A stretch of 64,000 bases of DNA, taken from Escherichia coli (lineage in GTDB: Bacteria; Pseudomonadota; Gammaproteobacteria; Enterobacterales; Enterobacteriaceae). The DNA is taken from assembly GCF_024502345.1 (NCBI RefSeq), contig NZ_JALDNN010000001.1; one strand, written 5' to 3'. The stretch's first letter is position 1. Each line of letters begins with the position of its first letter. This document shows positions 1 to 38,456 of the stretch, piece after piece. The notes beneath the pieces were generated by a model, which was not told where the DNA came from, did no database searches, and was given only the letters and a program-made list of their open reading frames with translations. The translations under genes were made by a program, and so were the position numbers.

Positions 1-46
1 AATAAGTGTCCGGATCAGCGTGGAATCCGCACAAATCCTGCATCGG

Positions 47-2332: not shown

Positions 2333-2417
2333 GCGATATCTCCTTGATGGATCATGAGATCAGGAAAATCAAGCCTTCATCGCGAAGAGAGGGGCTATTC
2401 GCCCCTCTCTTGCGGTT

Positions 2418-3305: not shown

Positions 3306-3407
3306 GGTGATATGCCTCGTATGAGATAGTGAAAATAGGGGAATCTATTGGGGCCGACTGCGAATATCGCGAGACTGACCGATGGAGCAGTCGGCCCCTT
3401 CATCACC

Positions 3408-4337: not shown

Positions 4338-4343
4338 TTGAAG

Positions 4344-4802
4344 TTAATTGACTGAAATTTCAATCTGTTTCGGTTTGGCTTGCTCGGCCTTGACAAGCCG
4401 CACTTCCAGCACGCCGTCTTTCATGGAAGCCGTCACCTTGGTCGGATCAACGTTGTCAGGCAAGACAAAGCTGCGCACAAAGCGGCCATACGCACGTTCG
4501 ATGCGGTGGAACTTCTTGCCCTGCTCCTCTTTTTCCAGTTTGCGCTCGCCGCTGATGGTGAGCACACCGTTTTCCGCGCTGACGCGCACGGCATCCTTGG
4601 GGACCTCCGGCAGATCCAGCTTGAGGAGGAATGCGTTCTCATCCTCGCTGATGTCCACCATTGGTGCCCAGTCCGCCGTGGTCATGGCTTCGTTGCCGGT
4701 ACGGGCGCCCTGTCGCTGGGGTGTCCGTCCCAACATCGTCGCCAGGCGGTTTTGCAATTCATCCAGTTCCCGGAAGGGGTCCCACGGAGTCAATGCAGAC
4801 AT
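4344..4802 (-). CDS. Small heat shock protein, Hsp20/alpha-crystallin family (sHsp-GI)
   Basis: Alpha-crystallin domain (ISEDENAFLLKLDLPEV...GVLTISGER...GVLEVRLVK); start taken at internal Met (track ORF extends to 4865). Confidence 0.8.
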   Translation of the reverse strand: MSALTPWDPFRELDELQNRLATMLGRTPQRQGARTGNEAMTTADWAPMVDISEDENAFLLKLDLPEVPKDAVRVSAENGVLTISGERKLEKEEQGKKFHRIERAYGRFVRSFVLPDNVDPTKVTASMKDGVLEVRLVKAEQAKPKQIEISVN

Positions 4803-4896
4803 ATCGGTTCTCCTTGAACAATGCCGGTGAATTGGATGACGCACCGAACAGAGCCGCCGGCTCACTCTGAATAGCGCCTATTACTTTTCGTTTCTA

Positions 4897-6231: not shown

Positions 6232-6240
6232 GTCGTGCCG

Positions 6241-7701: not shown

Positions 7702-10537
7702 CCGCTGACTTCTTCTTGCGCGCAGGCTTGCTCGCGTCGCCAGGCGGTGCCTCGGCCACGTCCGCGGCATCGGGCTTTTCAGGCTCAGCCGACTTCGCGG
7801 GTGGCTCCTGGCGCTCGAAGACCACCCGTTCGGCCTTGTCGTCCCAGCGGGCGTTGGCGTGATCACCCTTGCCGATACCGCCACCCAGCATCTCGCGCGC
7901 CAGCGCGGTTTCCAGCTCGCTGCGGATCAGCCGCTTGAGCTCACGCGCGCCGAACTCGGGCTTGTAGCCTTCCTCCGCGAAGTGGTCGATCAAGGTCTGA
8001 TCGAAGGTCAGCGTCACGCCCTGGCTGGCGGCGTTGCGGGCCACACGATCAAGCTGCAGGCCGACGATATGGCGGATTTCCTCCTTGCCCAGCGCATGGA
8101 AGACGATGATCTCGTCGATGCGGTTGATGAACTCGGGGCGGAAGTGTCCGCGCAGCACGTCCATCACCTCGGACTTGGTCTTCTCGTATTCCTCGCCGGC
8201 GGCGCCACCGGCCTTCAGCCGACGCTGGATGATGTCCGAGCCCAGGTTCGAGGTGGCGATGATGATGGTATTGGTGAAATCCACCACCCGGCCCTTGCCG
8301 TCGGTGAGCCGCCCGTCGTCGAACACCTGCAGCAGGATGTTGTAGACGTCGGGGTGCGCTTTTTCGATCTCATCGAGCAGCAACACGCTGTAGGGCTTGC
8401 GACGCACCTTCTCGGTGAGCTGGCCGCCCTCGTCATAGCCCACATAACCCGGAGGCGCGCCCACCAGGCGTGCCACGGCATGGCGTTCCCCGTACTCGGA
8501 CATGTCGATGCGCAGCAGCGCACCTTCATCGCCATAGATGGACTCGGCCAGCGCCTTGGCGAGCTCGGTCTTGCCCACGCCGGTCGGCCCAAGGAACAGG
8601 AAAGTCGCCACCGGCTTGTCGCCTTCGCGCAGGCCCGCGCGCGACAACCGCACGGCATCGGCCACCGCGCGCACCGCTTCGTCCTGGCCCACCAGGCGCT
8701 CATGCAGCCGCTGCTCCAGATGCAGCAGCTTCTCGCGTTCTTCCACCGTCAGCTCGTTGACCGGAATGCCGGTCAGGCGCGAGACGATCTGCGCGACATG
8801 CTCGGCCTTGACTTCGGCGCTGCCCGAGGCGCGCTCGCGTTCCCATTCCTCGACGAGCTGCTTGAGTTCAGTCTCCTTGGCCTCGATGCGCTTGCCCAGC
8901 TCGGCGGCCTTGTCGTACTGCTTGCGCGAGGCCATGTAGTCCTGCTCACGCCGCAACTGGTGCAGTTCGGACTCCAGCTCCTGCACCGCCACCGGGCGAG
9001 CCGTGGCCGACAGCTTCACGCGTGCGGCCGCCTGGTCAAGCAGGTCGATGGCCTTGTCAGGCAAAAAGCGCGCGGTGATGTAGCGGTCCGACAACTCGGC
9101 GGCGGCGATGATCGCATCCTCGGTGATGCTGACCTTGTGGTGCGCCTCGAAGGTGTCGCGCAGGCCGCGCAGGATCATCATGGTCTGCGCTACCGTCGGC
9201 TCGGGCACCATCACCGGCTGGAAACGACGCTCCAGCGCGGCGTCCTTCTCGATGTACTTCTGATACTCGTTGAGCGTGGTGGCGCCGATCAGGTTCAGTT
9301 CGCCGCGCGCCATCATCGGCTTGAACACGTTGGCCACGTCCAGCCCGCCTTCGCCGCCACCCTGGCCTGCACCGACGATGGTGTGCACTTCATCGATGAA
9401 GAGAATCATCTCGCCCTGGTGCTCGGTCACTTCCTTGAGCACCTTCTGCACGCGCTCCTCGAACTCGCCGCGATACTTGGCGCCTGCCACCATGGCGTTG
9501 ATGTTGAGCTCGACCAGACGCTTGTCGCGCAGCGTCTCGGGCACTTCACCGGCGACCATGCGCTGCGCCAGCCCTTCGACAATGGCGGTCTTGCCGACGC
9601 CGGGCTCACCGATCAACACCGGGTTGTTTTTCTTGCGCCGGGCCAGCACCTCGATGGTGGTCTCGATCTCCTGCGCACGGCCGATGACTGGATCGAGTTT
9701 GCCCTCGCGCGCCATCTTGGTGAGGTCGCGCGAGTATTTATCCAGCTCGGGCGTGTTGGTCGGCGTCTCGGCGCGGCCATCCTCGGCCCCTTTGCCGACC
9801 ACCTTGCTTACCTGCTGGCGCAGCGCTTGCGGCGTGAGGCCGTAACGGCGCAGCAGGTTGGCCGCCAAACCTTCGCCTTCCTCAGCGAGCCCGATCAGGA
9901 AATGCTCCGGCCCGACATAAGAGTGGCCGAGTTCGTTGGAGGCCACGAAAGCGCGGCTGAGCGCGTCCTTGACCCGGGGCGACACGCCGACTTCGCCCTC
10001 GAACGGCTTCTCGCCGCGCTTGGCTTCGGATTCGATCTGTCGCTTGAGGTCATCGACCTTGATCTTGAACTGTCCCAGGATGGTCTTCACCACGTCGCTG
10101 TCGGATAGCGCCAGCAGCAGGTGTTCGGTATCGACTTCGGCGCGCCCGAACTCTGCAGCGTGTCGGGCGGCCTCCTGCAATAGGGCCTCGGACTGTTCGC
10201 TGATACGGCTGGCGAGCCCACTGCCGCGACGGCGCGCAGTGCCCGTACCGGCCGGGGCGGGTTCGCCGAACGAGGCATCGACCACCTCGTCGGTATCGGC
10301 CGCCATGGACGGCGAATCGTCACCGATGCGGAAGAAGTCGCTGCCGAGGAAGTCTTCGAACAAGCCGCTGCGCGAGCCAAACAAGGCTTCCAGCGGCGAG
10401 ACGGTGCGCTTTTGCTGGCGCGCCAGTTGGCGATAGTGATCGTCACACAACAGCATGGTGCTGTGGCGACCATTGAGATTGGCTTCCACCCGCACCGTGG
10501 CGGGCTGGCCGCAGACCTGGCATTGTTTTCTGGCCAT
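7688..10537 (-). CDS. clpK: ClpK/ClpG-type Clp AAA+ disaggregase with N-terminal zinc-ribbon-like extension
   Basis: Two AAA modules (GEPGVGKT and GPTGVGKT Walker A), Clp-N region, CQVCGQ...CDDHY N-terminus; AAGGAG RBS 7 nt upstream of chosen ATG; about 949 aa. Confidence 0.9.
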
Positions 10538-10634
10538 GCTCATGCTCCTTGAGAGGACTGATTTGACGAGGCGCCGAAGGTCACGGCGCCTCGCCATTCA
10601 CTTGGTTTTTCTGTAGAGAACAAGCCGATCGGCG

Positions 10635-11204
10635 TCAGCCGTTGATCGGGATCGAGCGGCCCTGCTTGGGCGCACTGGCCTCGCGCTTTTCCATTGTGAT
10701 CGTGAGTACGCCGTTCTTGAAAGCGGCCTTGATCGTGTCCTGGTTGGCATCGGTCGGCAGGTTCAGAGCGCGCTGAAAGCTGCCGTAGGAGCGCTCCACC
10801 CGGTGGAAACCGCCGTCTTTGCTTTCCTGCTCCTGACGCTTTTCACCGCGAACCAGCAGCACGTCGTTGTCGAGCGTGATATGGATGTCTTTTTCCTCGA
10901 CGCCGGGAACCTCCAAAGAAATCTTGTACTGCTTGTCGGTCTCCTGGATGTCCAGCGCCGGCTTCAGCAGGCCCGGCCAGTCCGACGGCCAGCGTGGCAT
11001 GGCCAGCGCCGGAAAGCCGAAGCCTCGAAACGTGTCGTCGAAGAGGCGGTCGATCTCGCGGTGCAATTGCAGGATGGGACTGACGGGCCCACCCGCTACC
11101 GGCAGGTCATTGCGCTGCACCGGCAGCGAGGCAGTGCTCTGTTGTTCTTCCTGCTCCTTCTTGAACCAGTTCCAGGGAGCCAACTTCTTGAAATCAATGT
11201 CCAT
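10635..11204 (-). CDS. Small heat shock protein Hsp20 (sHsp20)
   Basis: Alpha-crystallin domain (DIQETDKQYKISLEVPGV...GVLTITMEK); GGAGG RBS before internal ATG (MDIDFKK). Confidence 0.85.
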   Translation of the reverse strand: MDIDFKKLAPWNWFKKEQEEQQSTASLPVQRNDLPVAGGPVSPILQLHREIDRLFDDTFRGFGFPALAMPRWPSDWPGLLKPALDIQETDKQYKISLEVPGVEEKDIHITLDNDVLLVRGEKRQEQESKDGGFHRVERSYGSFQRALNLPTDANQDTIKAAFKNGVLTITMEKREASAPKQGRSIPING

Positions 11205-11239
11205 GTCACACCTCCAGAACAAAAATTGAAGACTCTCGC

Positions 11240-11521
11240 TCACTCCGTTTGCCTGCGGCTATGGATAGCGCGCCCAGGCAACACGGGATGTTTCGCTGAC
11301 TTCGGCTGCTCATCTGTACGTATCACCTCCTTCTTTCTGCCTGCTTGGATCTGATCATTGATCCATCGATCGATTTCACTTTGACGAAACCGCCACGTCC
11401 CGCCGACCTTGAAGGCCGGAATCTCCCCGTGCGCGGCGAGCCGGTAGAGCGTCCGCTTGCCGACCTTTAAGTAGGTAGCCAACTCGTCGAGTGTGAAGAT
11501 CGCCTGCTGGCGCGCTGTCAT
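11240..11521 (-). CDS. Small HTH DNA-binding protein (AlpA/excisionase/MerR-like), first gene of the heat-resistance locus
   Basis: Motif LDELATYLKVGKRTLYRLAAHGEIPAFKVGGTWRF typical of HTH_17/excisionase-type regulators; 4-nt overlap with sHsp20 ORF. Confidence 0.6.
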   Translation of the reverse strand: MTARQQAIFTLDELATYLKVGKRTLYRLAAHGEIPAFKVGGTWRFRQSEIDRWINDQIQAGRKKEVIRTDEQPKSAKHPVLPGRAIHSRRQTE

Positions 11522-12028
11522 ACCACCCCCACAAGTTCCGTCGTCACGCGGCCTCGCCTGAGGAAGTTCTTGCAAGACTTTGCAAGATATTGCGCCTAAT
11601 ATGCCAAAAGTCAAGAGTCAACATCCAGCGATCTGCTGGCCGATTGATGTGACTCAAATCTTCAAGGACGGTATGCCAGGGCGGGCCGGTCCGGCGCAGG
11701 GGACGGTGGGTTGATCGGGACCTTGCGGGCGCCGCCCACGGCCGCAGATCAAACACCGATCCTCACGTTGTAACCGAGCGCCCGCAGCCCCTTGCTCGTG
11801 CGCATGTTCCTTGGCGGAAACTCGTCTGGGCGCGCCCAGCCGACGATTTCCCCGAGGCTGCTCAGGCCAATGTGCGGAATTGCCCAGTCGTCGCTGCGGA
11901 TCGCGTTCCAGAGTCGGGCCGAAAAACCTCCGTTGCCCCAGACAACGTAGTTCAACAGTATCCGTCCTGCCAACACACCTTCCCGACACCGCCGCCGAAG
12001 GCCATGGCCCATCAAGCGGATTTTCCAT

Positions 12029-12399
12029 GCCCCCTCAGCGCCGTACCTACAGCAAATCTTTCAAGGCCCAGGTCATTCAGGAGTGTTCTGAACCCGGTGC
12101 CTCCATCGCAAACATCGCCTTGGGCTACAGCCTCAATGCCAACCTCGTCCACAAATGGATTCGGCTGCATACCCAGAAAACCACGGCTATCCAGCCAGCG
12201 TTCATCCCGTTGCCTTCTCAAATGCTCGGCGCGGGATCGCATGCTCAAGTGCGCTGCTGCGATCATGAGTTTGATCCAGTCGGCCCGTAATAATGGGCAC
12301 GATCCGTATGCCTATCTCAAGGATGTGCTGACACGGTTGCCGACGCAGCGGGCGAGTGAGATTGCAGAGCTGCTGCCGCATAGGTGGCATCCGGCATAG
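12029..12399 (+). mobile_element. IS66-family remnant: OrfA-like HTH fragment fused to a TnpC C-terminal fragment (internally deleted)
   Basis: RRTYSKSFKAQVIQE...NANLVHKWIR transposase-HTH pattern; separate frame ends ...GHDPYAYLKDVLTRLPTQRASEIAELLPHRWHPA like the IS66 TnpC C-terminus; central transposase region absent. Confidence 0.6.
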
Positions 12400-12639
12400 T
12401 CGCGCAAGACGGTCTGCCCGCACGCTTACGTTCAACAGCTCAAGCACCGTCCGCCCTTCGCGGGATCGTTGCCGCCAGAGCCACACGCCGAACTTTTCCA
12501 CCTTGTCGTCGCCGGCCTGCGGTCAGTCAGGCAAGCCCAGGTGCTTGTTTTCCTGCTTGATCGCGTGGTCTCGGATCGCGTGCACCCGGGAAACGGCATC
12601 CACGAACTGCCACCATCTCTTAGCTTGGCGGGGTCAAGC

Positions 12640-14497
<1,858 letters not shown>

Positions 14498-14505
<8 letters not shown>

Positions 14506-16000
14506 TCCATCTTCCTATCAATCGAATGAACGCAGTGGTCAGTGGTGCCACCCTGCTTTTTTCCAATCCACAACGCTTTTCCAGCTCCCAGCGCCTAGAC
14601 GTTATGCCTGTCTGTACATCCTTCAGCATCGCTGCAGTCAGGCGACGGATCTGATACTCGCCGACGGACTCGGCATAGCGATCCAGGAAGGTGCAGCAAA
14701 GAGGCAATTGATCGAGACGGTGCTCGACTGATGCCCGATGGGGTAGCTGCTGCAGGAACCAGTTGCGACTCCTGCGCGGAAGGCCCAGGTCTTCTTCGCT
14801 ACCTCTACCAATCCGGATCAGCAGGCGCACCAACCTTATGTCACGCGCTCGCCAGTCGATGTGGCTGTTGTTGCCCTGTCGGCGCTGCCTGACCTGGTTC
14901 GCAACCATCAGCCAGTGTCGGTCATGACGATAGAGCCAGGCGTAACATGCCCCTGCTCCGTCTTGCCTGGCTGCCTTGGCTCCACCGTGATTAGCCAGTG
15001 CTTGCAGCCAAATGGCTCGGTACTGCTGCTTTTGCTCAAACTCAGCAGGGAGCAGCTGCACTGACCGCTCGGAGGCAAGGTCGACCTGGCGAGTCTTCGC
15101 CTCGCTGATCAGCTCGCCAGCATGCTGGCCAGGGCGCAGGCTGGTCCAGACGATCAGATGCTGCAGCGCACTGAATCCCTTGCGATGCTTCCTGAACATC
15201 GCCAACAGCCAAGGTGGAGGCTCTCCGGATGTCAGCAGACCGTTCGCAGCAAGCCAATCCCTTTGATGGGATGCCAGGATCTTCTCCCAGATGACTTCAG
15301 CCCTGACCTGCCGGCCTCGCCTGGCGCCGCACTCTGTAGCCAGGTACCGGTACAGGTTGGTCCAGCGTCCGTAGCCAGGCGATTGCACCTCTTCGAGCGC
15401 CAGCAGCTGCATAGCAGCCTTGGCGAGCCTGATAGCCTCTTCGCCCACGGGACTCACGCGAAGATCACGGGGCAGAAACAGTGGAGAGGCTGTATGAAAC
15501 TCGTGCCGCTGCGCTCGACGGAACGGGATAGGTGAGTTCAGGAGCTGACAGCCATGCTCGGGACAGGCATCTATCCCTTGAATCTGCCAGCTGCGCCGCC
15601 AGTAGGGTTCACCGTAGCGCGCAGCCATATCTTCAAAGCAGATCGGGCAGTAACGCAGCCAATCGGGCCACTTGACCAAGGCCGTCGAGGCCCCAGACAG
15701 ACCAATCGTCGGCCGGTCGGGAGCAAGCATGGCCTGAAAAAGATCGGTACGGCGCTCCGGCGGAATGAAAGGGGCATAGAGCGGGAACAGCGTGTGATTC
15801 AGGATCATGCCTTCCGCATCCAAGCCCGTGTTGTTCGCCAACGCAGTCAGGTGTGTGGGCAGATCGGTGATCGCGGCAACCTTGCTGTCACCGAAAAGCA
15901 TGTGCAGCAAGGTCTTGTGGCTGCCTATCCCCAGATGTACCCGGCACCGGGCAATACCGCTGTAAAGCAGTTCGTCCGGGTAGAGCCTGGGGAAGTACAT
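14498..16000 (-). CDS. tnsD: TnsD/TniQ-family target-site selection protein
   Basis: 500 aa; N-terminal TniQ-like region (YPDELLYSGIARC) and CPICFED...CPEHGC zinc-finger motif. Confidence 0.75.
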
Positions 16001-16001
16001 G

Positions 16002-17612
16002 TCAGCTCGCTCTCAGCAGAGGCCGTAGATCGAGGATCAAGCCAGCCTGCTTGAATCTGTCATAGGCCTCGCTTTCAGGCCCATCGGCATAACGTCGGCG
16101 CAGATCCTCCTCGGATAGGCACCCCCACTCCGTCCGCTTAACTCTGGAAATGCCGGGCCTCTTGGGAGCGTCCTGCGCGAGGTAGGCCGTGGCCTTGTGA
16201 ATCAGGGCCGCCAGCGGGATGTCCGGATTCTCCGCCAACAATTCATCGGCCATGGGAATGGCGATGTCCCTCGGGATTTCCATACCTTCGAGCAGGGCGG
16301 CCAACCGCTTTGCCTTGTCATCAGCCGGAGGGGCCGGTGGTTTAGGTTGGGGGACGCTATCCAGAGAGCGAGTCAGGGTCAGCAACCGTCCCTCGATCTC
16401 TGGCATCAGCAGGTCGTCATATTTGGCGATCAGCTCGGGCCTACCGCTCCGCAAGGCCGCCAGCATCGGATGGACCGGTTTGAACTCGTCCTCGAAAACC
16501 CTGCGCAGCAACAGCGGCTTAATGCACTCGACACCTGTCACTATCGCCCGGATCTGCGCCAGCGCGAACAGCTTGATGACGATGTCCATGACCCCTTGGG
16601 TGAGGTCGTACATCGTAGCCTCCAGTTCATCATCCAGCGGCGCCGCATTTCGCAGCCACTGATACTTCCAAAGCCGCTTCAACAGACGCTTCCAATGCTC
16701 GTCCCGAGGCAACCTATCCCAGCGGATGCTGCCCAACCCGGAGACCCGCCGAGCAGCCCGGAACGTGCGCTGGAAGAACTTGCTGGCCCGGTGGGTGCCG
16801 ACCTGAATGATCGGAACACCGATGGTGTTCACCAGCGACACGAAGAAATTGTGCATTTTTTCGGCACCACCGGAGCGTGCCTCGTTGAGGTTCTGAACCT
16901 CGTCGATGATCAGCACTCCGAGCGTGTGCAGATTGGCCAGCTGGCACATGGATGCCAGCAGACGTTTGGTACCCAGCTTCTTGCGTCCGTGGCTACGGCT
17001 GTAGTGGGTACCCAGGATCTTGTCTACTTCGTTGAAGAAGCTCAGGCACAGCTCATCCAAGTCACCGTCAATTGGGCAGTCGATCTTCAGGTAGACCAGT
17101 TGGGTGATGTCGTAATCAGGGTGATGGAGAGCTTGGGGGTACATGCCCAGAATCCGCTCCAGCGTGCGCGTCTTGCCGCAACCGGAGCAGCCGAACAGCG
17201 ACAGGCTGTTGGCCGTAGAGGAGACACTCTGGTACACCGCCGCATCCAGATCCTCCTCCTCGACACGGCGATAGCCATTCTGCAGGTGCGCATACCAGGC
17301 ACCGCTGGCCGGATTCCGACCGATGTACCCTTGACGGATCATCAGGCTGATCTTGCTCTCCAGCTCCAAGTGATGGCTCAGCGGCTGGAAGAAGCCGTGC
17401 AACAGGCGGGCAATCGCATGTGCCCTGAGCCGACCATCCAGAAGCGCCTCCTGCGGCTCGAAACCGGGAAGCTGCTGCAATAGATCGACCACCTCCTGCA
17501 GATCAGGAATCGGAGGCAATGCGCTGATGAGCGGATTGTCCTGATACTCGGGAAGCTGCTGCTCCTGGTAACGCGCCAGGGGAATGACTCCGCGCTGGAA
17601 TTCTTCAGTCAT
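16002..17612 (-). CDS. tnsC: TnsC AAA+ transposition regulator
   Basis: 536 aa; Walker A GCSGCGKT; Walker B-like IIDEVQN; placed between tnsB and tnsD. Confidence 0.8.
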   Translation of the reverse strand: MTEEFQRGVIPLARYQEQQLPEYQDNPLISALPPIPDLQEVVDLLQQLPGFEPQEALLDGRLRAHAIARLLHGFFQPLSHHLELESKISLMIRQGYIGRNPASGAWYAHLQNGYRRVEEEDLDAAVYQSVSSTANSLSLFGCSGCGKTRTLERILGMYPQALHHPDYDITQLVYLKIDCPIDGDLDELCLSFFNEVDKILGTHYSRSHGRKKLGTKRLLASMCQLANLHTLGVLIIDEVQNLNEARSGGAEKMHNFFVSLVNTIGVPIIQVGTHRASKFFQRTFRAARRVSGLGSIRWDRLPRDEHWKRLLKRLWKYQWLRNAAPLDDELEATMYDLTQGVMDIVIKLFALAQIRAIVTGVECIKPLLLRRVFEDEFKPVHPMLAALRSGRPELIAKYDDLLMPEIEGRLLTLTRSLDSVPQPKPPAPPADDKAKRLAALLEGMEIPRDIAIPMADELLAENPDIPLAALIHKATAYLAQDAPKRPGISRVKRTEWGCLSEEDLRRRYADGPESEAYDRFKQAGLILDLRPLLRAS

Positions 17613-19692
17613 CCTCTTCCTCCTTGAATATCAGGTCACTGAGATCTGGGAAGGCATAATCTTCCTGCTTCTCGCCCCGCAGTGGGATCACCTCGGCTGG
17701 CTTTTCCTGCTGTGCTTTATCCGGTTTGAATGCTGTTTTCTGGCGTTCCTGGCGCTTTTCCTGCTGCTTGTTCTCGCGGATCTGGGTTCCCAGATCCTTC
17801 GTGGTCATACCCGTTTTGAGCGGACTGGCATCCTCTGCCTGGGCAACGATGGACTCGATCTGCTTCAGAAGATTGCCTCTCTCTACCAAAGCTTCCGCCG
17901 CCGCGTTGGTATCGCTACGCCGTTCCTCTCTGGACAGCAGCCAGACATCCCAGAAGGTCATCCCCCTGAAGCGTCGACTGCGGTCGGCAAGATCGCAAAC
18001 CCAGTAGTCCTTGAGACTATTGGACGGCCGCAGGTAGATGTGGTCGGCGCTACGCGGATCGTATGCGACCGTTACCCCTGTCGGCCGGCGCCCCTGGCCT
18101 CGGTGAAACCAACCCTCCCTGATTGCTTCCTGGCAGGTGTAGAAGCAGCCGAACAGTCTGATTCCCAGCTCCGAAACCGTGGCCGACTCATGGGGCAAGA
18201 GATTTATCCGCACCAGCTCCTCGGGCGCAGTACGTAACCGGCCGGTCAAGTTGGCCAAGCCCCAGTTCCACAGCATGACCGGGATGGCTGGCAGATCGCC
18301 CGGCATACCAGAGGTTCTGTCGTATTTGCTCAAGGTATGAAAGTTGTTGTGGTAGAGGATGCCGGCAATGATGATCTGGGTGAACTCGGGCAAGGTCAGA
18401 CTGGCATCAAGTCTGTAGTCGTGGCCACCCCGCTTCCGGCTGGTGGTGTCCTCGACCACACCGCTGGCATAGGGCTTGAAACGCTCCTGCACCGTCCGGA
18501 AATAACGCTCGACGATCCCCTTGGCATCTCCTCGCCTGGCCGGTGCATTCTCGATGCGAACGCCGAAGGCTTGGGAAAATGCTTCCACCTTGGTGCCATT
18601 CAGTTCGCCCTTATCGGCCAGCACCACATCCGGCAAGCCTTTGACCGGCCAGTCGCTGGCATCGATCTCCACGCTATACTGGCGGCAATACTCAACCTTG
18701 TCGGCGACCGTGTTGGCCAATGCCACCATGGCACTGACCCAGGAAGGTCCCTCGAATCCGACGTACATACCAACGACCATGCGGCTGAACACGTCGATCA
18801 CCATGTAAACGACAGGCCTGCCGACGATAAGGCTGCGATCATGTTCTGAAACCAGATAGATATCGGCGATGGTGGCATCGATCTGGTAGCGGTATCCTGG
18901 CCCCAGTGCCTCGGTCGTCGATGTACTGCTGAGCGGTCGGAAGTCCTTGGCAAAATCCACTGCGGACACCCTGCATGGCAAGGTGTCGGTGAAGTGATAT
19001 TCGCGCCCATAGAAGTAACGGAACTGCCCCAATGTAGGCAGTTCGGAGGTCGGCAGCTCCGTCAGAACAGCACGGAGCAGATTCAGCCCGGCGGCGTAGG
19101 CATCAGGAATGGACGGATGTTTTTCCTTGAGCAAACGTTCCTCGATGACCCGGCGAAAAATGCGCTCGATGTCCGGCGTGACATTGCTCCCTTTCCCCTC
19201 CATCACCACTCTGGGCCTGCCCAGCTTGGCCTGGTTCGGCTTTCTGCGCTTGCCACGGGCGCCCGAGTTGACATAGTCCGGCAAGAGGGCATTCCTGCAC
19301 ATGCCTCGCTGCCAGTAGCGCCTCAGTAACCTATACACCGTCTGATTGGTGACACCATGGCGCTCCATGATGCCTCTGACAATGAGCCCTCTGGGGCGCC
19401 GCACGAAAAGCTGGGGGTTGTGCACAAAATCCGCCAGCATTCCCCAAGCTTCATCACGCTTCTGCTGATCAAGGGAACCTTCCTCAACCTCCCGTAGGAC
19501 TGTTTCCTCGAAGGGATCGGCAATGCTCTCCAGCTCCCGCTCCATGATCAGACGCTCCAGCTCTACAATCGATATCGGTTCGGGCAACGCCGTGTCCGAA
19601 TCGATATCGATCCAGATTGCCTGCTCGGTACCGGACCAAAGCAGGCGCTTTCGCAGTTCCCCCATCCGGAACACCTGATTAACGGGCAACAC
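17605..19692 (-). CDS. tnsB: TnsB DDE transposase (retroviral-integrase-like core)
   Basis: 695 aa; N-terminal HTH, central rve-like core (YQIDATIADIY...VIDVFSRM...), similar in size to Tn7 TnsB. Confidence 0.85.
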   Translation of the reverse strand: MLPVNQVFRMGELRKRLLWSGTEQAIWIDIDSDTALPEPISIVELERLIMERELESIADPFEETVLREVEEGSLDQQKRDEAWGMLADFVHNPQLFVRRPRGLIVRGIMERHGVTNQTVYRLLRRYWQRGMCRNALLPDYVNSGARGKRRKPNQAKLGRPRVVMEGKGSNVTPDIERIFRRVIEERLLKEKHPSIPDAYAAGLNLLRAVLTELPTSELPTLGQFRYFYGREYHFTDTLPCRVSAVDFAKDFRPLSSTSTTEALGPGYRYQIDATIADIYLVSEHDRSLIVGRPVVYMVIDVFSRMVVGMYVGFEGPSWVSAMVALANTVADKVEYCRQYSVEIDASDWPVKGLPDVVLADKGELNGTKVEAFSQAFGVRIENAPARRGDAKGIVERYFRTVQERFKPYASGVVEDTTSRKRGGHDYRLDASLTLPEFTQIIIAGILYHNNFHTLSKYDRTSGMPGDLPAIPVMLWNWGLANLTGRLRTAPEELVRINLLPHESATVSELGIRLFGCFYTCQEAIREGWFHRGQGRRPTGVTVAYDPRSADHIYLRPSNSLKDYWVCDLADRSRRFRGMTFWDVWLLSREERRSDTNAAAEALVERGNLLKQIESIVAQAEDASPLKTGMTTKDLGTQIRENKQQEKRQERQKTAFKPDKAQQEKPAEVIPLRGEKQEDYAFPDLSDLIFKEEEDD

Positions 19693-20506
19693 TGCTCAGC
19701 TCCTGATGCATTTGATGAGAGTTGGCAACCAGGTCTTTCGGCTTCAGCTCCCGGTAAGGAGTGTCAAGATCGAAAAGGAAACAGTGCCGGGCCAGCAACT
19801 GGCGTAGCCAATAGAGCGCCTGACCGGCCTCCAGCTGGCCGGAGGTATCCAGTCCTTGGGCAATAGCGGTCAGCTTCCGGTCTGGGTGACGCTGAAACTC
19901 GAGCAGAAACAGCTGCTGGTAATGGGCGAGATCGTCCTGAGCGATGTCGCCTTCAGCATGGGCAGGATAGAGCCATTGGATATTGGCAAATGCCACCTTG
20001 GATACCTCGCGCTCCGTAACGATGACCCAGGGAATACCTTTTTCCTGCCAGTAGCGCCTTTCAAGCTCAAGCCTCTCGATAACTTCAGGCTTCTGCAGGT
20101 CGGTACTGTACTTGGCCTGAATCGCGATGCTCGGGCGCTGAGGATCTTCGAAATCCACCAGAAAGTCGCTGGTCAGTACCTGCGGGGTACCCTTGTAACA
20201 ACCGTGGGGCAGGCCAAGCTCCTCGGCGATGCGCACCGTATCTTCGACCCGCATCGGAAACTGTTCACGGATATCGGTGACATGGGGAGACCGATCCAAG
20301 GTCAGGAAGATGGCCAGTTCAAGATCGGATAGAAGATGGTGTAAACGCCGGGTCTTGCTGCCAGGCAGGCGGTGGGAGCGACCCAGCGAGGACACGTCCC
20401 TTGTGTAGATGAACGGCTTGTAGTCTGATCCCTGGCCTTGACCACGCCCGTCCTTGAGCCTTCTATCGATCTGGGCCTGGGTCAGCCCCTTGAATGTTCC
20501 AGACAT
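19679..20506 (-). CDS. tnsA: TnsA endonuclease
   Basis: 275 aa; blocks shared with Tn7 TnsA as I recall it (QIxRRxKxGRGQG, GRSHR, HHLLSDLELAxFL, DIREQFP, LELERRYWQ). Confidence 0.9.
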   Translation of the reverse strand: MSGTFKGLTQAQIDRRLKDGRGQGQGSDYKPFIYTRDVSSLGRSHRLPGSKTRRLHHLLSDLELAIFLTLDRSPHVTDIREQFPMRVEDTVRIAEELGLPHGCYKGTPQVLTSDFLVDFEDPQRPSIAIQAKYSTDLQKPEVIERLELERRYWQEKGIPWVIVTEREVSKVAFANIQWLYPAHAEGDIAQDDLAHYQQLFLLEFQRHPDRKLTAIAQGLDTSGQLEAGQALYWLRQLLARHCFLFDLDTPYRELKPKDLVANSHQMHQELSSVAR

Positions 20507-20565
20507 GAGAAAGCCTGCCCCCGCTGTGTCGATGACCTCAACATAGCGGATGCAGGCTCAGAATG

Positions 20566-20626
20566 AAACTTTATTTATACGGATGATACTTTATTTATAC
20601 GGATGAACCTTTATTTGCATCCCACA
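20566..20626. repeat. Tn7-like right-end terminal repeats (putative TnsB binding sites) ending in terminal 5'-TGTGGG on the complementary strand
   Basis: Three tandem about 20-bp repeats: ACTTTATTTATACGGATGA (x2) then CCTTTATTTGCATCCCACA; about 120 bp upstream of tnsA start. Confidence 0.75.
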
Positions 20627-20703
20627 CATTTTACTTAAGGCATAAGCGGTAGAGTTGAGTGATAACCCTTCCATAATTTCATTTTCTAACACACTAATTT
20701 AAT

Positions 20704-21069
20704 TTAGTGTGAATTTCCACTTTTAGTCATTATCGCTATCGCTTCATCGATAGTCGGTATTGTAAAGAGAGAATTCTCTCTACAATCCTTGCGAATAACC
20801 TTCCTGTTTTTTTGAACAGAAATATTTTCGCACCAGGCTAATGTCCCGGTGAAATGCTTTTCTTCCATCCTCATATCTAGAAAAGCAAGTCGATCATTAA
20901 GGGATTGCATATCTTCAGTTACAGTAGAGGGACCTGATTCTAACAGTTCCAGACGGCTTTCCACATCAGCAACCTTGCCTTTAACCTGTGAGACGTCTTC
21001 TGCTAACTTTTCATGTCTGTGGATAGTATCAGCAAGTGCTCGTGAGTTTTGGGCGAATATCTCAGCCAT
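20704..21069 (-). CDS. Hypothetical coiled-coil protein (low-GC module)
   Basis: 121-aa ORF, heptad-like charged/hydrophobic pattern; no recognisable motif. Confidence 0.35.
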   Translation of the reverse strand: MAEIFAQNSRALADTIHRHEKLAEDVSQVKGKVADVESRLELLESGPSTVTEDMQSLNDRLAFLDMRMEEKHFTGTLAWCENISVQKNRKVIRKDCRENSLFTIPTIDEAIAIMTKSGNSH

Positions 21070-21216
21070 TTGCGCTAAGGCAGATCCTTTCGCTTCTGGT
21101 GGAGGTGGGTATATATACCTAATGCTTAGTCAACGACAGTATGACCTCATGGAATAACCATTTTTGAAAGTGCTCACCAGCTGCGCTTCGGTCGCTCGAC
21201 ATGACTCAATACAAAC

Positions 21217-21420
21217 CTAGTTGGAGCTATAACTTTCGCCGTAGGAATTAATGACCATTATTTGGCCAGCATCAACAGGCTGGCCATCTAAAGTAACAAG
21301 TCGTTTAGTTGCACGCTCTGGAAAGATAATATCCTTTGACTGCCTATCTTCTTCAATGTCCTTTAGTACCTTAGCCAAGGAGGTTTTCAATGTTCCATGG
21401 GGCGCATACAAAGAGCACAC
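21217..21420 (-). CDS. Hypothetical small protein (possibly a gene fragment)
   Basis: 67-aa ORF only; low-GC context. Confidence 0.2.
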   Translation of the reverse strand: MCSLYAPHGTLKTSLAKVLKDIEEDRQSKDIIFPERATKRLVTLDGQPVDAGQIMVINSYGESYSSN

Positions 21421-21562
21421 GCCGTCAATGCTATTAATTCTGGTAAAGTCTAACTACTCCACCAGTTTATTGATGCTGTAACAGTTCTCCAGATCCAGTC
21501 CAAGTTTCATTTCGACTTCTTTTTCAAATCGTTCATTTCAAAAAACTGTGAATTAACACAGC

Positions 21563-23216
21563 TCACGCATACCTGCTTGAAAACTCGTCCATCGAATTAG
21601 ATACCGTAAAATTCACCTCATCACCCAGTGCTTCAAAATGTGCATAACCACATTTTATTTTGGCATTTTCCTCCGGACGTCGTTCCACCGAGAAAAGCGT
21701 GCTTTTGGTTTCGACAACGAAATAGAGCTTTTCTTTTCCGTCCTTTTCGATCAGCACCGCCCAGTCGGGGTTGTAACCGCCTAATGGGGTATCGATTTTG
21801 AACCAACTAGGGAGTTTGGCGTAAAGTTTGATATCCTCGTTTCGCTCGAAGGCCGAGGCGAATTCCAATTCGATATCAGAGTCGTAAACCACGTGGTCGA
21901 AGACGGACTTCGTCATACCAGCGGTAGTTGGCGACCTTGTCGATAAAAAACAGGCTCAGCACCTTAATGCCCTGTGGGCGCAGGCGCATTTCTTTATCGA
22001 GATGCTCTTCAATGGTTTTGCGGATCTGCAGGCGTTTAAATTCATCCGGATCAACTTCTCCCAAGGCCTGACCCAGTTTCAGAATATCGGGCTTACTGGT
22101 AAAGCTGATGTATTCATTGCCCTGTTCGCAGTAGATGTCATCAATAATGTAGCCGTCATATACATCGCGGCCACCGCTGTACCTGGCATCCAGCAAATCC
22201 GCTCCGCTGGTCACCGTGACTTCCTTGCGCTTAATGCTGCCATTCTTCAGGCGAGCATCAATTTCGATTTTGGCACTGATCGGGCTTTTTTTATTGTTCA
22301 CACTGACCAGCTTGATAAAGGCCTTATTGTGGCCGTCCTTAACCTCAATGCCTGCCACTTCAATCTGCTTAACCAGTTTTTGCTCGTAGGCATCAACTGA
22401 ATCAAGCTTGTAGAGCATATGGTGCTTTTCCACATGGGTAGCTGAATAACGCAGTGTACACATGGGATTAAGCGAGGCGATGGCCTCTTTACTCTTATCT
22501 GTGGTGTCAACACTCTGCGGCTCATCGACAATCACAATTGGGTTGGTTTGCTGGATAAATTCGATCGGCTTGGCACCGGTCATCCGGTCGTGTGCCCGGT
22601 GAATGATGTTGGCTTTGTTCTCTTGCTCCGGGTCGCTAAAGCTTTTCCGGAAGGCATCGATATTGATGACCATGATCTGAATGTCAGGGCTGGTCGCAAA
22701 GTTACGCACATCCGACAGCTTACTGGAATCGTAGGTGAAATAGTCGAAGGCAACGTTTTCGTACAGCTCTTTAAAATGAGTCGCCGTAATTTCCAGTGAC
22801 TTCTGCACTCCTTCTTTAATGGCGATGGACGGCACCACGATAATAAACTTGGTAAAGCCATAGAGCCGGTTCATTTCGAAAACTGTACGCAGGTAAACAT
22901 AGGTTTTACCCGTTCCGGTTTCCATTTCCACGGTTAAGTGAATGCCGTATTTCGAGTCAAATGACTCTGACGGCGCGAGGCCATTTTTCAGCTGTATTTT
23001 GCGGATATTGGCATGGATGTCTTCATCCAGCAGGCGTAGGCGGTTACCAATACCCAGGGTATCTTCCTGAATACCATGAAACAGCGAGCCTTCTTCCCAG
23101 GAATGCAGCGGTGCTACCGTAAAGTTGGTCTGGCAGATTTCCTGGCCGGCGAATACGCCCGTTACTGACTCAATCGCATCACGCTGATAGCCAAGGTGAT
23201 AGCTGTAACTCTTCAA
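21563..23216 (-). pseudogene. res: Type III restriction Res-like SF2 helicase-nuclease, disrupted (frameshift between helicase N-terminal part and C-terminal PD-(D/E)xK nuclease part; helicase domain 2 apparently missing)
   Basis: ORF 21876..23216 has YQRDAI, METGTGKT (Walker A), IVDEPQ (Walker B), SAT motif; ORF 21563..21916 in another frame has GYNPDW...FVVETK nuclease motif; frames overlap 21879-21955 around an A6/T6 tract at 21945-21950. Confidence 0.65.
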
Positions 23217-23700
23217 TGACCCACTTTGCTTGATCCGCTCTGTTTATGCGCTTGTCCGCCAGGCAGATAGCCAGTTGTTCTTTGTCGTGTTGTTTTTCGC
23301 GTACGTTTGAATCCGAATCGCCAGTGCCCTCTGTGCCTTTGTTTTCAGCGTGCACAAAGAAAATTACTAATGGGTAAGGTATCGCCCTGTTGATCAGCTG
23401 ACCAATTCGTTCTGCGCTTTTGGTATTGCTTAATTCCACGTGCAGAAAGGCCAGCTCACCATAGTCGCGCAGGTCGTCACTAAAAGGCGCGATATTGATG
23501 GTGCTGGGCTTTAGGGTGTAGAGCCAACGGATTTTATCAACATCGTCCTTCAGAGCCTTTTTGTCTTTAGCGTCCAGGTCGGCGTGCTCCTGAAACATCT
23601 TTTTGAACAGGGGCTTATTGAGCACACAGCTATTGGGCACGTTCAAGCCTTCCAGAAAGGCTTCGAATTGTGGCAAGCCTAACCTCATATCAGACATCAC
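23179..23700 (-). CDS. Hypothetical protein (possibly DUF4391-like), 38-bp overlap with res-like gene
   Basis: 173-aa ORF co-oriented and overlapping res start; DUF4391 assignment is from memory only. Confidence 0.35.
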   Translation of the reverse strand: MMSDMRLGLPQFEAFLEGLNVPNSCVLNKPLFKKMFQEHADLDAKDKKALKDDVDKIRWLYTLKPSTINIAPFSDDLRDYGELAFLHVELSNTKSAERIGQLINRAIPYPLVIFFVHAENKGTEGTGDSDSNVREKQHDKEQLAICLADKRINRADQAKWVIEELQLSPWLSA

Positions 23701-24403
23701 GCTCTCCTTGACCTTCTGTTCCCTGAGTAACGGCTGTCAATATCAGGTAGGACACCACCATAAAGTCTTCAATGCCCTGACTGGAGGTGGCGGTAAGTAC
23801 AGTACCGCCTTTGGCAAACAGGCTTTCAATGCCTTTTTCTTCGCTCTTCCCGGCAATGCTATCTACAGCGACAGCTAATAGGTGCTGAAAGTGGCTCATA
23901 TCACACCCGTGGCGTGTCATGCGGTTAACTTCGGTGATGGCGGGTTGATCGGGCACTTTGTGCTTAAAGGCTTCACGCTTGAGCAGATCGAGTATCTTTT
24001 TACTTTGGGTGAAGTTCAGCTCAACTACAGTGCTGCCTTCGGCATCAGCGGTCACGTAGATCAGGAAGTAAGGTGCCAGCGGGTAATTATCATCTACCTG
24101 AACCGCTTCTTTACCGCTGCGGATATTCTTCAGGCAGAAGATGACGCCGGGTTTGATGCCATCGGCGACCATATCTTCGTCAATGCTGACGGCGGCATAC
24201 AGGCCTAGCGGTGTTTGCTCCAGCGTTGCGAGACGGGCCTTATCGTTCATGTAGCCTGACAGATCCATGCGGAAGTCATTGAGGGTAAGGTCGGTAATGG
24301 ATACCGGATGGGGCGTGGAGGATATGGTAGCAACCATGATGCGCTGTCTGCCGGACCGCGCCACCAGCCCAGTAGCGACACAGTTGCACGGGAGGCTCTG
24401 CAC
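23690..24403 (-). pseudogene. Hypothetical ORF, probably the 3' portion of a 5'-truncated gene
   Basis: GTG-initiated 237-aa ORF; same frame stays open a further 72 codons upstream (to about 24619) without any ATG/GTG/TTG; upstream part is GC-rich unlike the body. Confidence 0.4.
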
Positions 24404-24835
24404 GGAGCCGGTAAAGTCGCAGGCCCGTGACGGCTTCGGTGAGGCGGTGGGGCGGGTGTTCGATACGGCAGAGTCATCGTCATTCCTGCCTGCGCCGCTG
24501 AAGACGGTGATACGTACCGTGCGTGATGCGGTGGTGTCTGTAGCCCGCGCGGTCTGGGACTGGATCTTCTTCTGAATGAGTAAAAGGTCATCAGCGTTGT
24601 AGTGGATGGCTCTGTTTATTCACAGCCTGGTGGATGATTATTTTAAAGCAGACACAACCTGTCCTGACCAGCAAAAGATATCACCAGTCATAAGCGCGTC
24701 ACCACTGCCGACGTTGCATCCACGCAGTCTTCTCGCGCCAGGCGTTTCGCTACGTATCACGGACATAACCTGTCAGTCTCATCCTTTACAGTAATACCTT
24801 CTTAATTAATCAATTACCAAACACGGAGATAATAC

Positions 24836-25159
24836 ATGTCTCAGACTGAGCGTCGTTATGACCGCCTGTCTGTCCGGCTTTCTCTGATTATCAGCCGTCT
24901 GCTCGCGGGTGAAACGCTGAATATGCGCAAACTGGCCGCTGAGTTTGGCGTCTCGGAGCGTACCCGCCAGCAGTCAGCGGCTGTGGCGTCACAATACACC
25001 AACGTTGCTACAGAGGATGACCAGAACACACATTTTCGCCTGGTGGTCCGGGATACCGACGGCAGGATGCACTGGCGGGCCAGGAACTTTGAGCCGGAGG
25101 CGGGTTACTGGCTGAACCGCTATCTCACCAGCGATGGCATTCGCAGAGCCACAACGTAA
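24836..25159 (+). pseudogene. YfjR-like DeoR/WYL-type HTH regulator, N-terminal fragment (likely disrupted)
   Basis: N-terminus [33 protein letters not shown] is a DeoR-type HTH; remainder lacks the expected continuation; 107 aa versus over 200 expected. Confidence 0.45.
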
Positions 25160-25278
25160 TACATACTACCGTTACCTTCAGCATACCACCCGCAACGATG
25201 TTATAAACAGAGCTAGGCCACACCTCCTTCGGGAAGTGTGGCCTTTCGTATTTTTATCGAGAGAATAAGGAGTTATCC

Positions 25279-26097
25279 ATGCGACTCGCCAGCCGCTTTG
25301 GCCGTATCAATCAGATCCGCCGCGACCGCCCCTTAACCCATGAAGAATTAATGCAGGTTGTTCCCAGCGTCTTCGGGGAAGGTAAGCACGTGTCCCGTTC
25401 AGACCATTACAGCTACATACCGACCATTACCCTGCTGGAGAACCTGCAGCGTGAAGGATTCCAGCCATTCTTTGCCTGCCAGACCCGCGTCAGGGACCAG
25501 AGCCGCCGTGAGCATACGAAACATATGCTGCGCCTGCGTCGCTCCGGGCAGATAACCGGTCAGCAGGTGCCGGAAATTATCCTGCTCAATTCGCATGACG
25601 GTTCGTCCAGTTACCAGATGTTGCCGGGGTATTTCCGTGCCATCTGTACCAACGGTCTCGTCTACGGGCAGTCATTTGGCGAGGTGCGAGTGCCACACCG
25701 GGGAAATGTCGTGGAGAAAGTGATTGAAGGCGCTTACGAAGTCCTCGGTGTGTTCGACCGGGTGGAAGAGAAGCGTGATGCGATGCAGTCGCTTTTACTC
25801 CCGCCACCGGCACAACAGGCTTTTGCCAGAGCCGCGCTGACGTACCGCTTCGGGGAAGAGCACCAGCCGGTGACGGAAGCGCAGATACTGACACCCCGCC
25901 GCTATAAAGACCGTCAGGATGACCTGTGGTCAGTTTTTAATCGGTGCCAGGAGAACCTGCTCAAAGGGGGGCTGCCAGGACGTACTGCCAAAGGCAAACG
26001 CAGCCATACCCGCGCGGTGAAAGGCATCGACGGCGACGTTAAGCTCAACCGGGCACTCTGGGTGATGGCGGAAAAACTGCAGCAGGCGCTGAGCTGA
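25279..26097 (+). CDS. DUF932-family protein (YfjQ/YafZ-like)
   Basis: 272 aa; size and position upstream of the antirestriction-radC-TA module as in E. coli CP4-type prophage remnants. Confidence 0.7.
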   Translation: MRLASRFGRINQIRRDRPLTHEELMQVVPSVFGEGKHVSRSDHYSYIPTITLLENLQREGFQPFFACQTRVRDQSRREHTKHMLRLRRSGQITGQQVPEIILLNSHDGSSSYQMLPGYFRAICTNGLVYGQSFGEVRVPHRGNVVEKVIEGAYEVLGVFDRVEEKRDAMQSLLLPPPAQQAFARAALTYRFGEEHQPVTEAQILTPRRYKDRQDDLWSVFNRCQENLLKGGLPGRTAKGKRSHTRAVKGIDGDVKLNRALWVMAEKLQQALS

Positions 26098-26364
26098 TGC
26101 CACCGCTGCCTGATAACGCCCACCCGGTCGCCATTTATCCTGCCCCCTGGAGAACAACCCCGGCAGCCGCTCCATCTCCGATGACGACCTGTGCGCCTAT
26201 GCTCACACCTTCTTTATCGTCCCGGTGAACTCAGTTTCTGCCGGTTAAGTCTCGCTGACGGCCACTGGCCCTCACACTGTGATGAAGACGGCTATGCGCA
26301 GTCATGTCCGTCACTCCGATTGAACCAGTATCCCCAACACAATGAATGAAAGAGGAAAAACAAC

Positions 26365-30155: not shown

Positions 30156-30232
30156 TGGCGGAACGGACGGGACTCGAACCCGCGACCCCCTGCGTGACAG
30201 GCAGGTATTCTAACCGACTGAACTACCGCTCC
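30156..30232 (-). tRNA. aspV: tRNA-Asp (GUC)
   Basis: Exact reverse complement of my recalled E. coli tRNA-Asp sequence incl. CCA; adjacent to dnaQ as in K-12. Confidence 0.95.
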
Positions 30233-38379: not shown

Positions 38380-38456
38380 TGGCGGAACGGACGGGACTCG
38401 AACCCGCGACCCCCTGCGTGACAGGCAGGTATTCTAACCGACTGAACTACCGCTCC
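38380..38456 (-). tRNA. aspU: tRNA-Asp (GUC), distal tRNA of rrnH operon
   Basis: Identical to aspV copy; follows 5S rRNA. Confidence 0.95.

What the first reader, a model, noticed from the sequence alone, without database searches (positions are those of the whole stretch)
21563..23216. Res-like helicase-nuclease split by a frameshift at an A6/T6 homopolymer, lacking helicase domain 2
The N-terminal ORF carries the Q motif, Walker A, DEPQ and SAT motifs of type III Res; a short ORF in another frame carries the C-terminal GYNPDW...VVETK nuclease motif. The two frames overlap across 21879-21955, which contains a 6-nt homopolymer (21945-21950); loss of one T would fuse them. Even fused, the product (about 560 aa) would lack helicase motifs V and VI. 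Either this is a decaying restriction gene, or a phase-variable/compact helicase-nuclease of unknown function.
Basis: seen in the sequence. Interest (0 to 1): 0.5.

Follow-up and report, generated by a model that had tools for sequence, protein, structure and literature searches.

The report
Deletion-wrecked type III restriction gene remnant

Summary
These are two minus-strand ORFs (446 and 117 aa), the Walker A, DEPQ and SAT motifs, the GYNPDW...VVETK nuclease motif, the frame overlap at 21879-21955, and the T6 run at 21945-21950. The proposed cause is wrong. The island is almost identical to that of E. coli ABWA45, which carries an intact 1012-aa res gene. Against that gene, the window lacks 1,376 bp (res codons 440-898). 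The junction is at 21908-21911 with GAAG microhomology, 34 bases downstream of the T6 run, and the deletion is out of frame. The T6 run is unchanged in three intact allele groups and in 13 independent contigs. A second deletion of 2,375 bp (junction 23188-23189) removed the end of the DUF4391 gene, the whole mod gene and the first 12 res codons, so the "TTG start" at 23216 is spurious. A third deletion removed the operon's upstream region and most of the Snf2-like helicase gene. The same four-deletion haplotype occurs in more than 20 public contigs, so it is real and clonal, not an assembly error. Verdict: an ordinary, recently formed pseudogene within a dismantled four-gene defence cluster. 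Interest is low.

The parts
21911..23189 (-). 5' remnant of type III res: codons 13-439 of a 1012-codon gene. It holds RecA1 with Walker A, DEPQ and SAT, the inserted domain, and the FFIDK strand.
   Evidence: 99.9% identical to ABWA45 res, L001 12001-13282. Residue mapping. Pfam ResIII covers residues 95-263 of the intact protein.
21908..21911 (-). Junction of deletion D4. 1,376 bp are missing (res codons 440-898), the deletion is out of frame (length mod 3 = 2), and the microhomology is GAAG.
21876..21907 (-). Out-of-frame tail (VRLRPRGLRL) and stop codon that end the 5' remnant's reading frame. This DNA is the start of the 3' remnant read in the wrong frame.
21563..21907 (-). 3' remnant of res: codons 898-1012 plus the stop, which is the complete PD-(D/E)XK endonuclease domain. 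The ATG at 21914-21916 comes from left-flank DNA (the TAT GAC codons of WYDE read in another frame). It heads the nuclease frame only because of the deletion.
   Evidence: Pfam RE_endonuc covers residues 897-1002 of the intact protein.
21945..21950 (-). T6 run (A6 on the + strand). It is unchanged from intact genes and is not the lesion.
23188..23189 (-). Junction of deletion D3. 2,375 bp are missing: the 3' third of the DUF4391 gene, all of mod, and res codons 1-12. The microhomology is TA.
23179..23697 (-). Truncated DUF4391 gene: 170 native codons, then 2 junction-derived codons and a stop.
   Evidence: called as 172 aa, PF14335.
23690..24304 (-). C-terminal 204 codons of the Snf2/DrmD-like 'helicase-related' gene, which is 1088 aa when intact.
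24302..24304 (-). Junction of deletion D2. 4,479 bp are missing: the 5' part of the GTPase gene, a group II intron RT fragment, an HTH gene, the region upstream of the operon, and helicase codons 1-884. The microhomology is GTA.
24961..24965 (-). Junction of deletion D1. 2,266 bp are missing: the irmA-like and yfjS-like genes, a hypothetical gene and most of the WYL gene. The microhomology is GGGTA. It creates the in-frame 107-aa WYL-N::DUF905 fusion ORF at 24836-25159 (+).

Best explanation
The region is a non-functional relic of an EcoP15I-like type III restriction (Res) gene. The gene belonged to a four-gene cluster (Snf2/DrmD-like helicase, DUF4391, type III Mod, type III Res) on a genomic island inserted at tRNA-Asp in E. 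coli. Shown: compared with an island copy that is otherwise nearly base-identical, this lineage carries four microhomology-flanked deletions within about 3.1 kb of window sequence (about 13.5 kb of the intact island). One deletion cut codons 440-898 out of res, out of frame. This removed the second RecA-like helicase domain with motifs V and VI, and left the nuclease domain in another frame. A second removed mod and the res start. A third removed the region upstream of the operon and most of the helicase gene. Inferred: nothing here can restrict DNA. Type III Res needs Mod for site recognition and needs an intact two-lobed ATPase to license cleavage (established knowledge of EcoP15I and EcoP1I). 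Inferred: the deletions arose by illegitimate recombination at short repeats (slippage or end-joining) and were fixed because the cluster was dispensable or costly. The T6 run plays no part.
For:: 23 of 5,426 complete E. coli genomes carry this res, and every one matches in two pieces spanning 3,166 bp against 1,790 bp in the window; the ABWA45 locus has a 3,039-bp res preceded by mod, DUF4391 and the helicase. Exact junctions and microhomologies were found for D1-D4; residue map 13-439 plus 898-1012; the intact protein aligns to EcoP15I Res (4zcf_C, E = 3.8e-59), with motifs V and VI inside the deleted stretch; the intact proteins match PADLOC REase_III (1147.8 bits, full length) and MTase_III; the remnants score only 169 and 55 bits on NF012027; the junction-specific 117-aa and 172-aa products occur in 25-28 collection blocks. 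Thirteen fetched contigs long enough to include the res junction, from ENA, Logan and an NCBI genome, all carry D3 and D4 and all have T6; both nucleotide differences from ABWA45 inside res are ABWA45-derived, so the remnant has no point decay and the deletions are recent; the summed microhomology of 14 bp over four junctions has P of about 1.4e-4 against random breakpoints; the island shows 5 differences in about 20 kb, while the backbone is 1-2% diverged.
Against: No expression data are available, so I cannot show that the fragments are untranslated. The 117-aa ORF encodes a complete nuclease domain and has an ATG. RefSeq names the two ORFs as ordinary proteins (WP_149011009.1 and WP_149011008.1) rather than as a pseudogene. 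No intermediate haplotypes were found, so neither the order of the deletions nor their independence is established.
Confidence: 0.94

Rival explanations
1. A frameshift or phase-variable switch at the T6/A6 homopolymer splits an otherwise continuous gene. Gain or loss of one T would toggle expression of a compact helicase-nuclease.
For: Removing one T in silico does join the two frames into one ORF.
Against: T6 has the same length in intact 1012-aa genes of three allele groups and in 13 independent contigs with the deletion. The real discontinuity is a 1,376-bp deletion 34 bases downstream. The fusion would replace the conserved IDKVANYRWYDE with junk and would still lack RecA2. The tract is below the 9-base threshold for mononucleotide phase variation (PMC5909438). 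The mod gene and the native res start are absent.
Confidence: 0.01
2. The deletions are assembly artefacts or in-silico collapses, and the real genome has an intact locus.
For: Four clean deletions in an otherwise identical sequence look suspicious. No complete RefSeq E. coli genome shows them.
Against: The same junctions appear in contigs from different projects and assemblers: MEGAHIT-style k141 contigs, SPAdes-style NODE contigs, Logan and an NCBI genome. The products are RefSeq proteins and are recorded on a 4.74-Mb contig. The microhomology at the junctions exceeds chance.
Confidence: 0.01
3. One of the fragments has acquired a new role. Candidates are the 117-aa stand-alone PD-(D/E)XK nuclease domain, with its junction-created ATG, or the RecA1-only 446-aa fragment.
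For: The deletion leaves the Pfam RE_endonuc domain (residues 897-1002) complete, headed by an ATG. The haplotype persists in many samples.
Against: There is no obvious Shine-Dalgarno sequence before either start. The region upstream of the operon is deleted, and the scan found one weak promoter-like site on the gene strand, which is no more than chance. The sequence is identical to the ancestor, so there is no sign of selection. Persistence is explained by clonal descent. The type III nuclease domain is not known to act without Mod and the ATPase (background knowledge).
Confidence: 0.03

Closest known systems
Intact E. coli ortholog WP_197731750.1 (strain ABWA45, NZ_CP022154.1 4167884-4170922), annotated 'type III restriction-modification system endonuclease'
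   Same: The retained DNA is 99.9% identical, the genomic island and the neighbours are the same, and the T6 tract is the same.
   Different: The ortholog is a single 1012-aa ORF preceded by mod, DUF4391 and a 1088-aa helicase. The window lacks codons 1-12 and 440-898 of res, all of mod, the 3' third of DUF4391 and about 81% of the helicase.
EcoP15I Res subunit (PDB 4ZCF chain C), the reference type III restriction helicase-nuclease
   Same: The intact relative aligns over residues 62-821 and 886-997 (E = 3.8e-59). Shared motifs are Walker A, DEPx, xAT, motifs V and VI, and the C-terminal PD...(D/E)xK nuclease motif.
   Different: The window copy keeps only the RecA1 side and, in another frame, the nuclease domain. 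It has no RecA2 and no Mod partner. The intact relative also has two extra upstream genes (Snf2-like helicase and DUF4391) that classical EcoP15I loci lack.
Phase-variable type III R-M genes (phasevarions; Atack et al. 2018, PMC5909438)
   Same: A mononucleotide run lies inside a type III gene.
   Different: The run is 6 bases against a threshold of 9 or more, its length is invariant, and it sits in res at a conserved Phe-Phe. It is not the site of the frame break.

Membership tests
Type III R-M Res subunit (functional member) | N-terminal SF2 RecA1 lobe with motifs I, II and III | tested here: met
   METGTGKT, VDEPQ and YSAT are present in the 446-aa ORF. It matches NF012027 positions 8-410.
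Type III R-M Res subunit (functional member) | RecA2 lobe with motifs V and VI | tested here: not met
   Residues 440-898 are deleted. Motifs V and VI of the intact relative lie at residues 537-590.
Type III R-M Res subunit (functional member) | PD-(D/E)XK endonuclease domain on the same polypeptide as the ATPase | tested here: not met
   The domain is present (it matches NF012027 positions 861-971) but sits in a different reading frame after a stop codon.
Type III R-M Res subunit (functional member) | Adjacent mod gene that supplies recognition and protection | tested here: not met
   mod (L001 10023-11963) lies wholly inside deletion D3.
Type III R-M Res subunit (functional member) | Whole-protein score above the curated family cut-off (NF012027, 564 bits) | tested here: not met
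   The fragments score 169.4 and 55 bits. The intact relative also falls short at 351 bits, although it matches PADLOC REase_III over its full length at 1147.8 bits.
Type III res by descent (pseudogene of) | Near-identical DNA to an intact res in the same genomic context | tested here: met
   99.9% identity on both sides of the deletion, with the same island and the same neighbours.
Phase-variable simple-sequence-repeat contingency gene | Repeat tract long enough to slip (mononucleotide, 9 or more) | tested here: not met
   The tract is T6. The threshold comes from PMC5909438.
Phase-variable simple-sequence-repeat contingency gene | Tract length varies among isolates or assemblies | tested here: not met
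   T6 is present in 13 of 13 contigs that cover it and in 3 of 3 intact allele groups. Within-population read data could not be tested.
Phase-variable simple-sequence-repeat contingency gene | One tract length restores a full-length functional product | tested here: not met
   The simulated one-T loss gives a 541-aa product that lacks RecA2 and has a scrambled conserved segment.

The most novel reading that the evidence does not exclude
The four microhomology-flanked deletions occur against zero point changes in the res remnant. Only three of the four (D2-D4) hit the four-gene defence cluster itself. No intermediate haplotype was found. They may therefore record a single short episode rather than slow decay. 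One possibility is self-restriction after the island entered an unmethylated new host, with the double-strand breaks repaired by microhomology-mediated end-joining so that survivors lost the system piecemeal.
Probability: 0.08. Interest if true: 0.4.

Novelty: already known. Interest (0 to 1): 0.08.

Why it matters
It matters little beyond annotation. The two ORFs are in RefSeq as separate proteins, 'DEAD/DEAH box helicase family protein' (WP_149011009.1) and 'hypothetical protein / restriction endonuclease' (WP_149011008.1). They should instead be flagged as fragments of one res pseudogene, so that defence-system predictors do not count a type III system in this lineage. The locus is also a clean small example of deletion-biased decay of a horizontally acquired defence cluster. 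Across both island copies there are five large deletions against five small differences. It also shows that a homopolymer inside a frame overlap can be a coincidence.

Tried and rejected
1. Homopolymer frameshift: rejected by alignment to intact genes and by the invariance of T6.
2. Assembly artefact: rejected because independent assemblies share the junctions.
3. Search for D3-only or D4-only intermediates, to order the events. I looked up the junction-specific 117-aa and 172-aa products. Every contig long enough carries both junctions. A 449-aa cluster member (P0030) looked like a D4-only form by its length. It is in fact a different, independent truncation that ends DGNPQRVSSP.
4. The argument that res must have died before mod was lost: dropped. 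Strain 81 has an IS5 insertion in mod with res intact, and type III Res needs Mod to act.
5. Rfam scan of 20400-25400 on both strands: no RNA family reached its gathering score.
6. Promoter and terminator scan of 21300-25300: counts were at or below the shuffle expectation.
7. Literature on DUF4391: only two incidental mentions, and nothing on the four-gene cluster.
8. IS elements as the cause of the deletions: no IS sequence was found at any junction.
9. I did not scan genome contigs or metagenome contigs. The exact-protein look-ups had already answered the prevalence question.

Full report
**Observation.** On the minus strand there are two ORFs, 21876-23216 (446 aa) and 21563-21916 (117 aa).
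- The first ORF carries METGTGKT, VDEPQ and YSAT. The second carries GGYNPDW...FVVETK.
- NCBIfam NF012027 (type III endonuclease, 986 positions) matches the first ORF at profile positions 8-410 and the second at 861-971. About 450 profile positions between them are not covered.
- The second frame is open from 21955. T6 lies at 21945-21950, and removing one T in silico fuses the frames.

**What the lesion really is.** A megablast search of 21400-23400 against 5,426 complete E. coli genomes found the gene in 23 of them. Every match came as two pieces spanning 3,166 bp in the record, against 1,790 bp in the window.

The closest record is strain ABWA45. It has a single 3,039-bp res gene (1012 aa, WP_197731750.1), preceded by a type III mod gene, a DUF4391 gene and a 1088-aa 'helicase-related' gene.

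Direct alignment places the discontinuity at window 21908-21911.
- ABWA45 bases 13283-14658 of locus L001 are absent, a loss of 1,376 bp.
- That length leaves a remainder of 2 when divided by 3, so the deletion is out of frame.
- Both ends share the 4-bp microhomology GAAG.
- The junction is 34 bases downstream of the T6 run.

In protein terms the window keeps residues 13-439, followed by 10 out-of-frame codons (VRLRPRGLRL; the last match to the intact protein is residue 439) and a stop. Residues 898-1012 follow in another frame.

The intact protein aligns to EcoP15I Res (PDB 4zcf_C, E = 3.8e-59). Helicase motifs V and VI (FIFSHSALKEGWDNPNVFQ...QEIGRGLR, residues 537-590) fall inside the deleted block. 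Pfam places ResIII at residues 95-263 and RE_endonuc at 897-1002 of the intact protein. The deletion therefore removes the RecA2 lobe and the linker, and leaves the nuclease domain whole but out of frame.

**The homopolymer is a bystander.**
- The same TTTTTT, encoding the Phe-Phe of LSLFFIDK, is present in intact 1012-aa genes of three allele groups: ABWA45, 720632 and SW071618. These are 93-96% identical to one another at the nucleotide level.
- All 13 fetched contigs that carry the deletion and cover the site also have T6.
- The window has 42 A/T runs of 6 or more bases, or 0.66 per kb.
- Surveys of phase-variable type III genes use a threshold of 9 bases for mononucleotide tracts (PMC5909438).
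- A one-T loss would turn the conserved IDKVANYRWYDE into STRSPTTAGMT.

**The gene is damaged at its 5' end too, and its partners are gone.** Across 20401-26100 the window is essentially identical to ABWA45, apart from four deletions:

| Deletion | Size | Junction (window) | Microhomology |
|---|---|---|---|
| D1 | 2,266 bp | 24961-24965 | GGGTA |
| D2 | 4,479 bp | 24302-24304 | GTA |
| D3 | 2,375 bp | 23188-23189 | TA |
| D4 | 1,376 bp | 21908-21911 | GAAG |

- D3 removes the last third of the DUF4391 gene, all of mod and res codons 1-12.
- The mechanical 'TTG start' at 23216 and the first nine residues (MKSYSYHLG) are therefore DUF4391-gene DNA read in another frame.
- D2 removes the region upstream of the helicase gene and helicase codons 1-884.
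- The promoter scan found only one weak site on the gene strand, which is within the chance expectation.
- The summed junction microhomology of 14 bp is unlikely for random breakpoints (P of about 1.4e-4). This fits genuine illegitimate recombination rather than arbitrary cut-and-paste.

**The allele is real and clonal.** Exact look-ups used two products that exist only because of the junctions: the 117-aa ORF, whose ATG heads the nuclease frame only because of D4, and the 172-aa DUF4391 fragment, which ends with D3-derived codons. They returned 28 and 25 collection blocks respectively.
- The sources are ENA metagenome assemblies, Logan assemblies and an NCBI genome (GCA_050022275.1).
- Fetched contigs are 99.9-100% identical to the window, have no gaps, and carry every junction they are long enough to include.
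- The two ORFs are RefSeq proteins WP_149011009.1 and WP_149011008.1, and are recorded on a 4.74-Mb contig.
- No contig carries D3 without D4, or D4 without D3.

**Age and setting.**
- The island (window about 10001-30232, bounded by tRNA-Asp at 30156-30232) differs from ABWA45 at only 5 positions in about 20 kb. The chromosomal backbone differs by 1-2%. The island was therefore shared by horizontal transfer recently.
- Both nucleotide differences inside res are derived in ABWA45. The remnant has accumulated no point changes.
- ABWA45 has its own deletion of about 1.56 kb in tnsC-tnsD and a 1-bp indel in tnsA.
- Other independent truncations of this Res exist in public data: P0030 ends DGNPQRVSSP, and P0025 is 419 aa.
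- In strain 81, IS5 interrupts mod while res stays intact. This fits the established dependence of type III Res on Mod. It also means the order of D3 and D4 cannot be inferred from toxicity arguments.

**Mechanism.** The intact cluster is a type III R-M pair with an upstream Snf2/DrmD-like helicase and a DUF4391 protein. The PADLOC matches are REase_III at 1147.8 bits, MTase_III at 717.7 bits, and 'HKD+Snf2' C3a139 for the helicase.

In the window all four genes are fragments. From established knowledge of EcoP15I and EcoP1I, Res needs Mod to recognise its site and needs ATP hydrolysis by a complete RecA1-RecA2 motor before the nuclease cuts. With mod, RecA2, the native start and the upstream region all missing, the inferred state is inert. 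That inference was not tested experimentally.

**Comparison and novelty.** By descent this is a type III res gene. It fails the tests for a functional member: RecA2, single-chain nuclease, adjacent mod and HMM cut-off. It also fails every test for a phase-variable contingency locus. It is an ordinary deletion pseudogene of an already annotated family.

The only slightly unusual aspect is four deletions with no accompanying substitutions and no intermediates. This allows, but does not demonstrate, a single-episode origin.

**Negative results.** No Rfam family was found in 20400-25400. No literature was found on the DUF4391-containing cluster.

Noticed in passing
window 21908-24965: Four private, microhomology-flanked deletions totalling 10.5 kb lie within about 3.1 kb of window sequence. 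The island is otherwise about 100% identical to that of E. coli ABWA45. They always occur together in public contigs, and no intermediate haplotypes were found.
   Followed up: yes
window 24836-25159 (+): Deletion D1 created an in-frame 107-aa fusion ORF. It joins the N-terminal HTH part of a WYL-domain regulator (about 43 aa) to the C-terminal part of a DUF905 protein. Gene callers report it as a DUF905 protein.
   Followed up: partly
window 12883-20628 (-): A Tn7-like element has intact tnsA, tnsB, tnsC, tnsD and tnsE (275, 695, 536, 500 and 540 aa). A right-end-like terminus lies at about 20560-20628 (TGTGGGATG..., with three ATAAATAAAG-N-TCATCCGT-type repeats). Homology to island copies that lack the transposon stops at about 20627. 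On the cargo side (window 1-12800) it is followed by the clpK/sHSP20/yfdX heat-resistance locus. The left end lies outside the window.
   Followed up: partly
window 15414-16969; L001 about 19596: ABWA45, not the window, has a deletion of about 1.56 kb that fuses tnsC and tnsD (annotated there as one 'TnsD family' protein). It also has a 1-bp indel that splits tnsA. Both copies of the island are decaying by deletion.
   Followed up: partly
window 30156-30232 and 38380-38456: Two tRNA-Asp(GTC) genes are present. One follows the rrn operon. The other marks the island boundary: identity to ABWA45 switches from about 98-99% on the backbone to about 100% in the island at 30232.
   Followed up: partly
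L023/L024 (ENA ERZ28665080 and ERZ10621027, 4,037-bp contig): One gut-metagenome contig has the same D1-D4 junctions but 41 mismatches. They cluster in two patches (window 23302-23730 and 22074-22999) that flank D3, and partly resemble other res alleles. It is either a recombinant deletion haplotype or a chimeric consensus of co-occurring strains.
   Followed up: partly
L001 5859-15003 (ABWA45); also L019, L020, L021 and L022: The intact cluster of Snf2/DrmD-like helicase, DUF4391, type III Mod and type III Res is conserved as a unit in three allele groups, and in SW071618 it sits at a different chromosomal site. DUF4391 has no PADLOC or NCBIfam match, and the searchable literature has essentially nothing on it. 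The role of the two extra genes alongside a type III R-M pair appears to be uncharacterised.
   Followed up: partly
window 6001-10000: Thirty-two mismatches to ABWA45 cluster within the otherwise identical island cargo (the clpK region). This suggests a local recombination patch.
   Followed up: no
cluster 1: In the 90%-identity protein clustering, the 117-aa Res C-terminal fragment sits in the same cluster as the 1088-aa Snf2-like helicase proteins and the 237-aa helicase fragment. This is probably a clustering artefact, perhaps linked through fusion or mis-called proteins such as the 1360-aa member.
   Followed up: no
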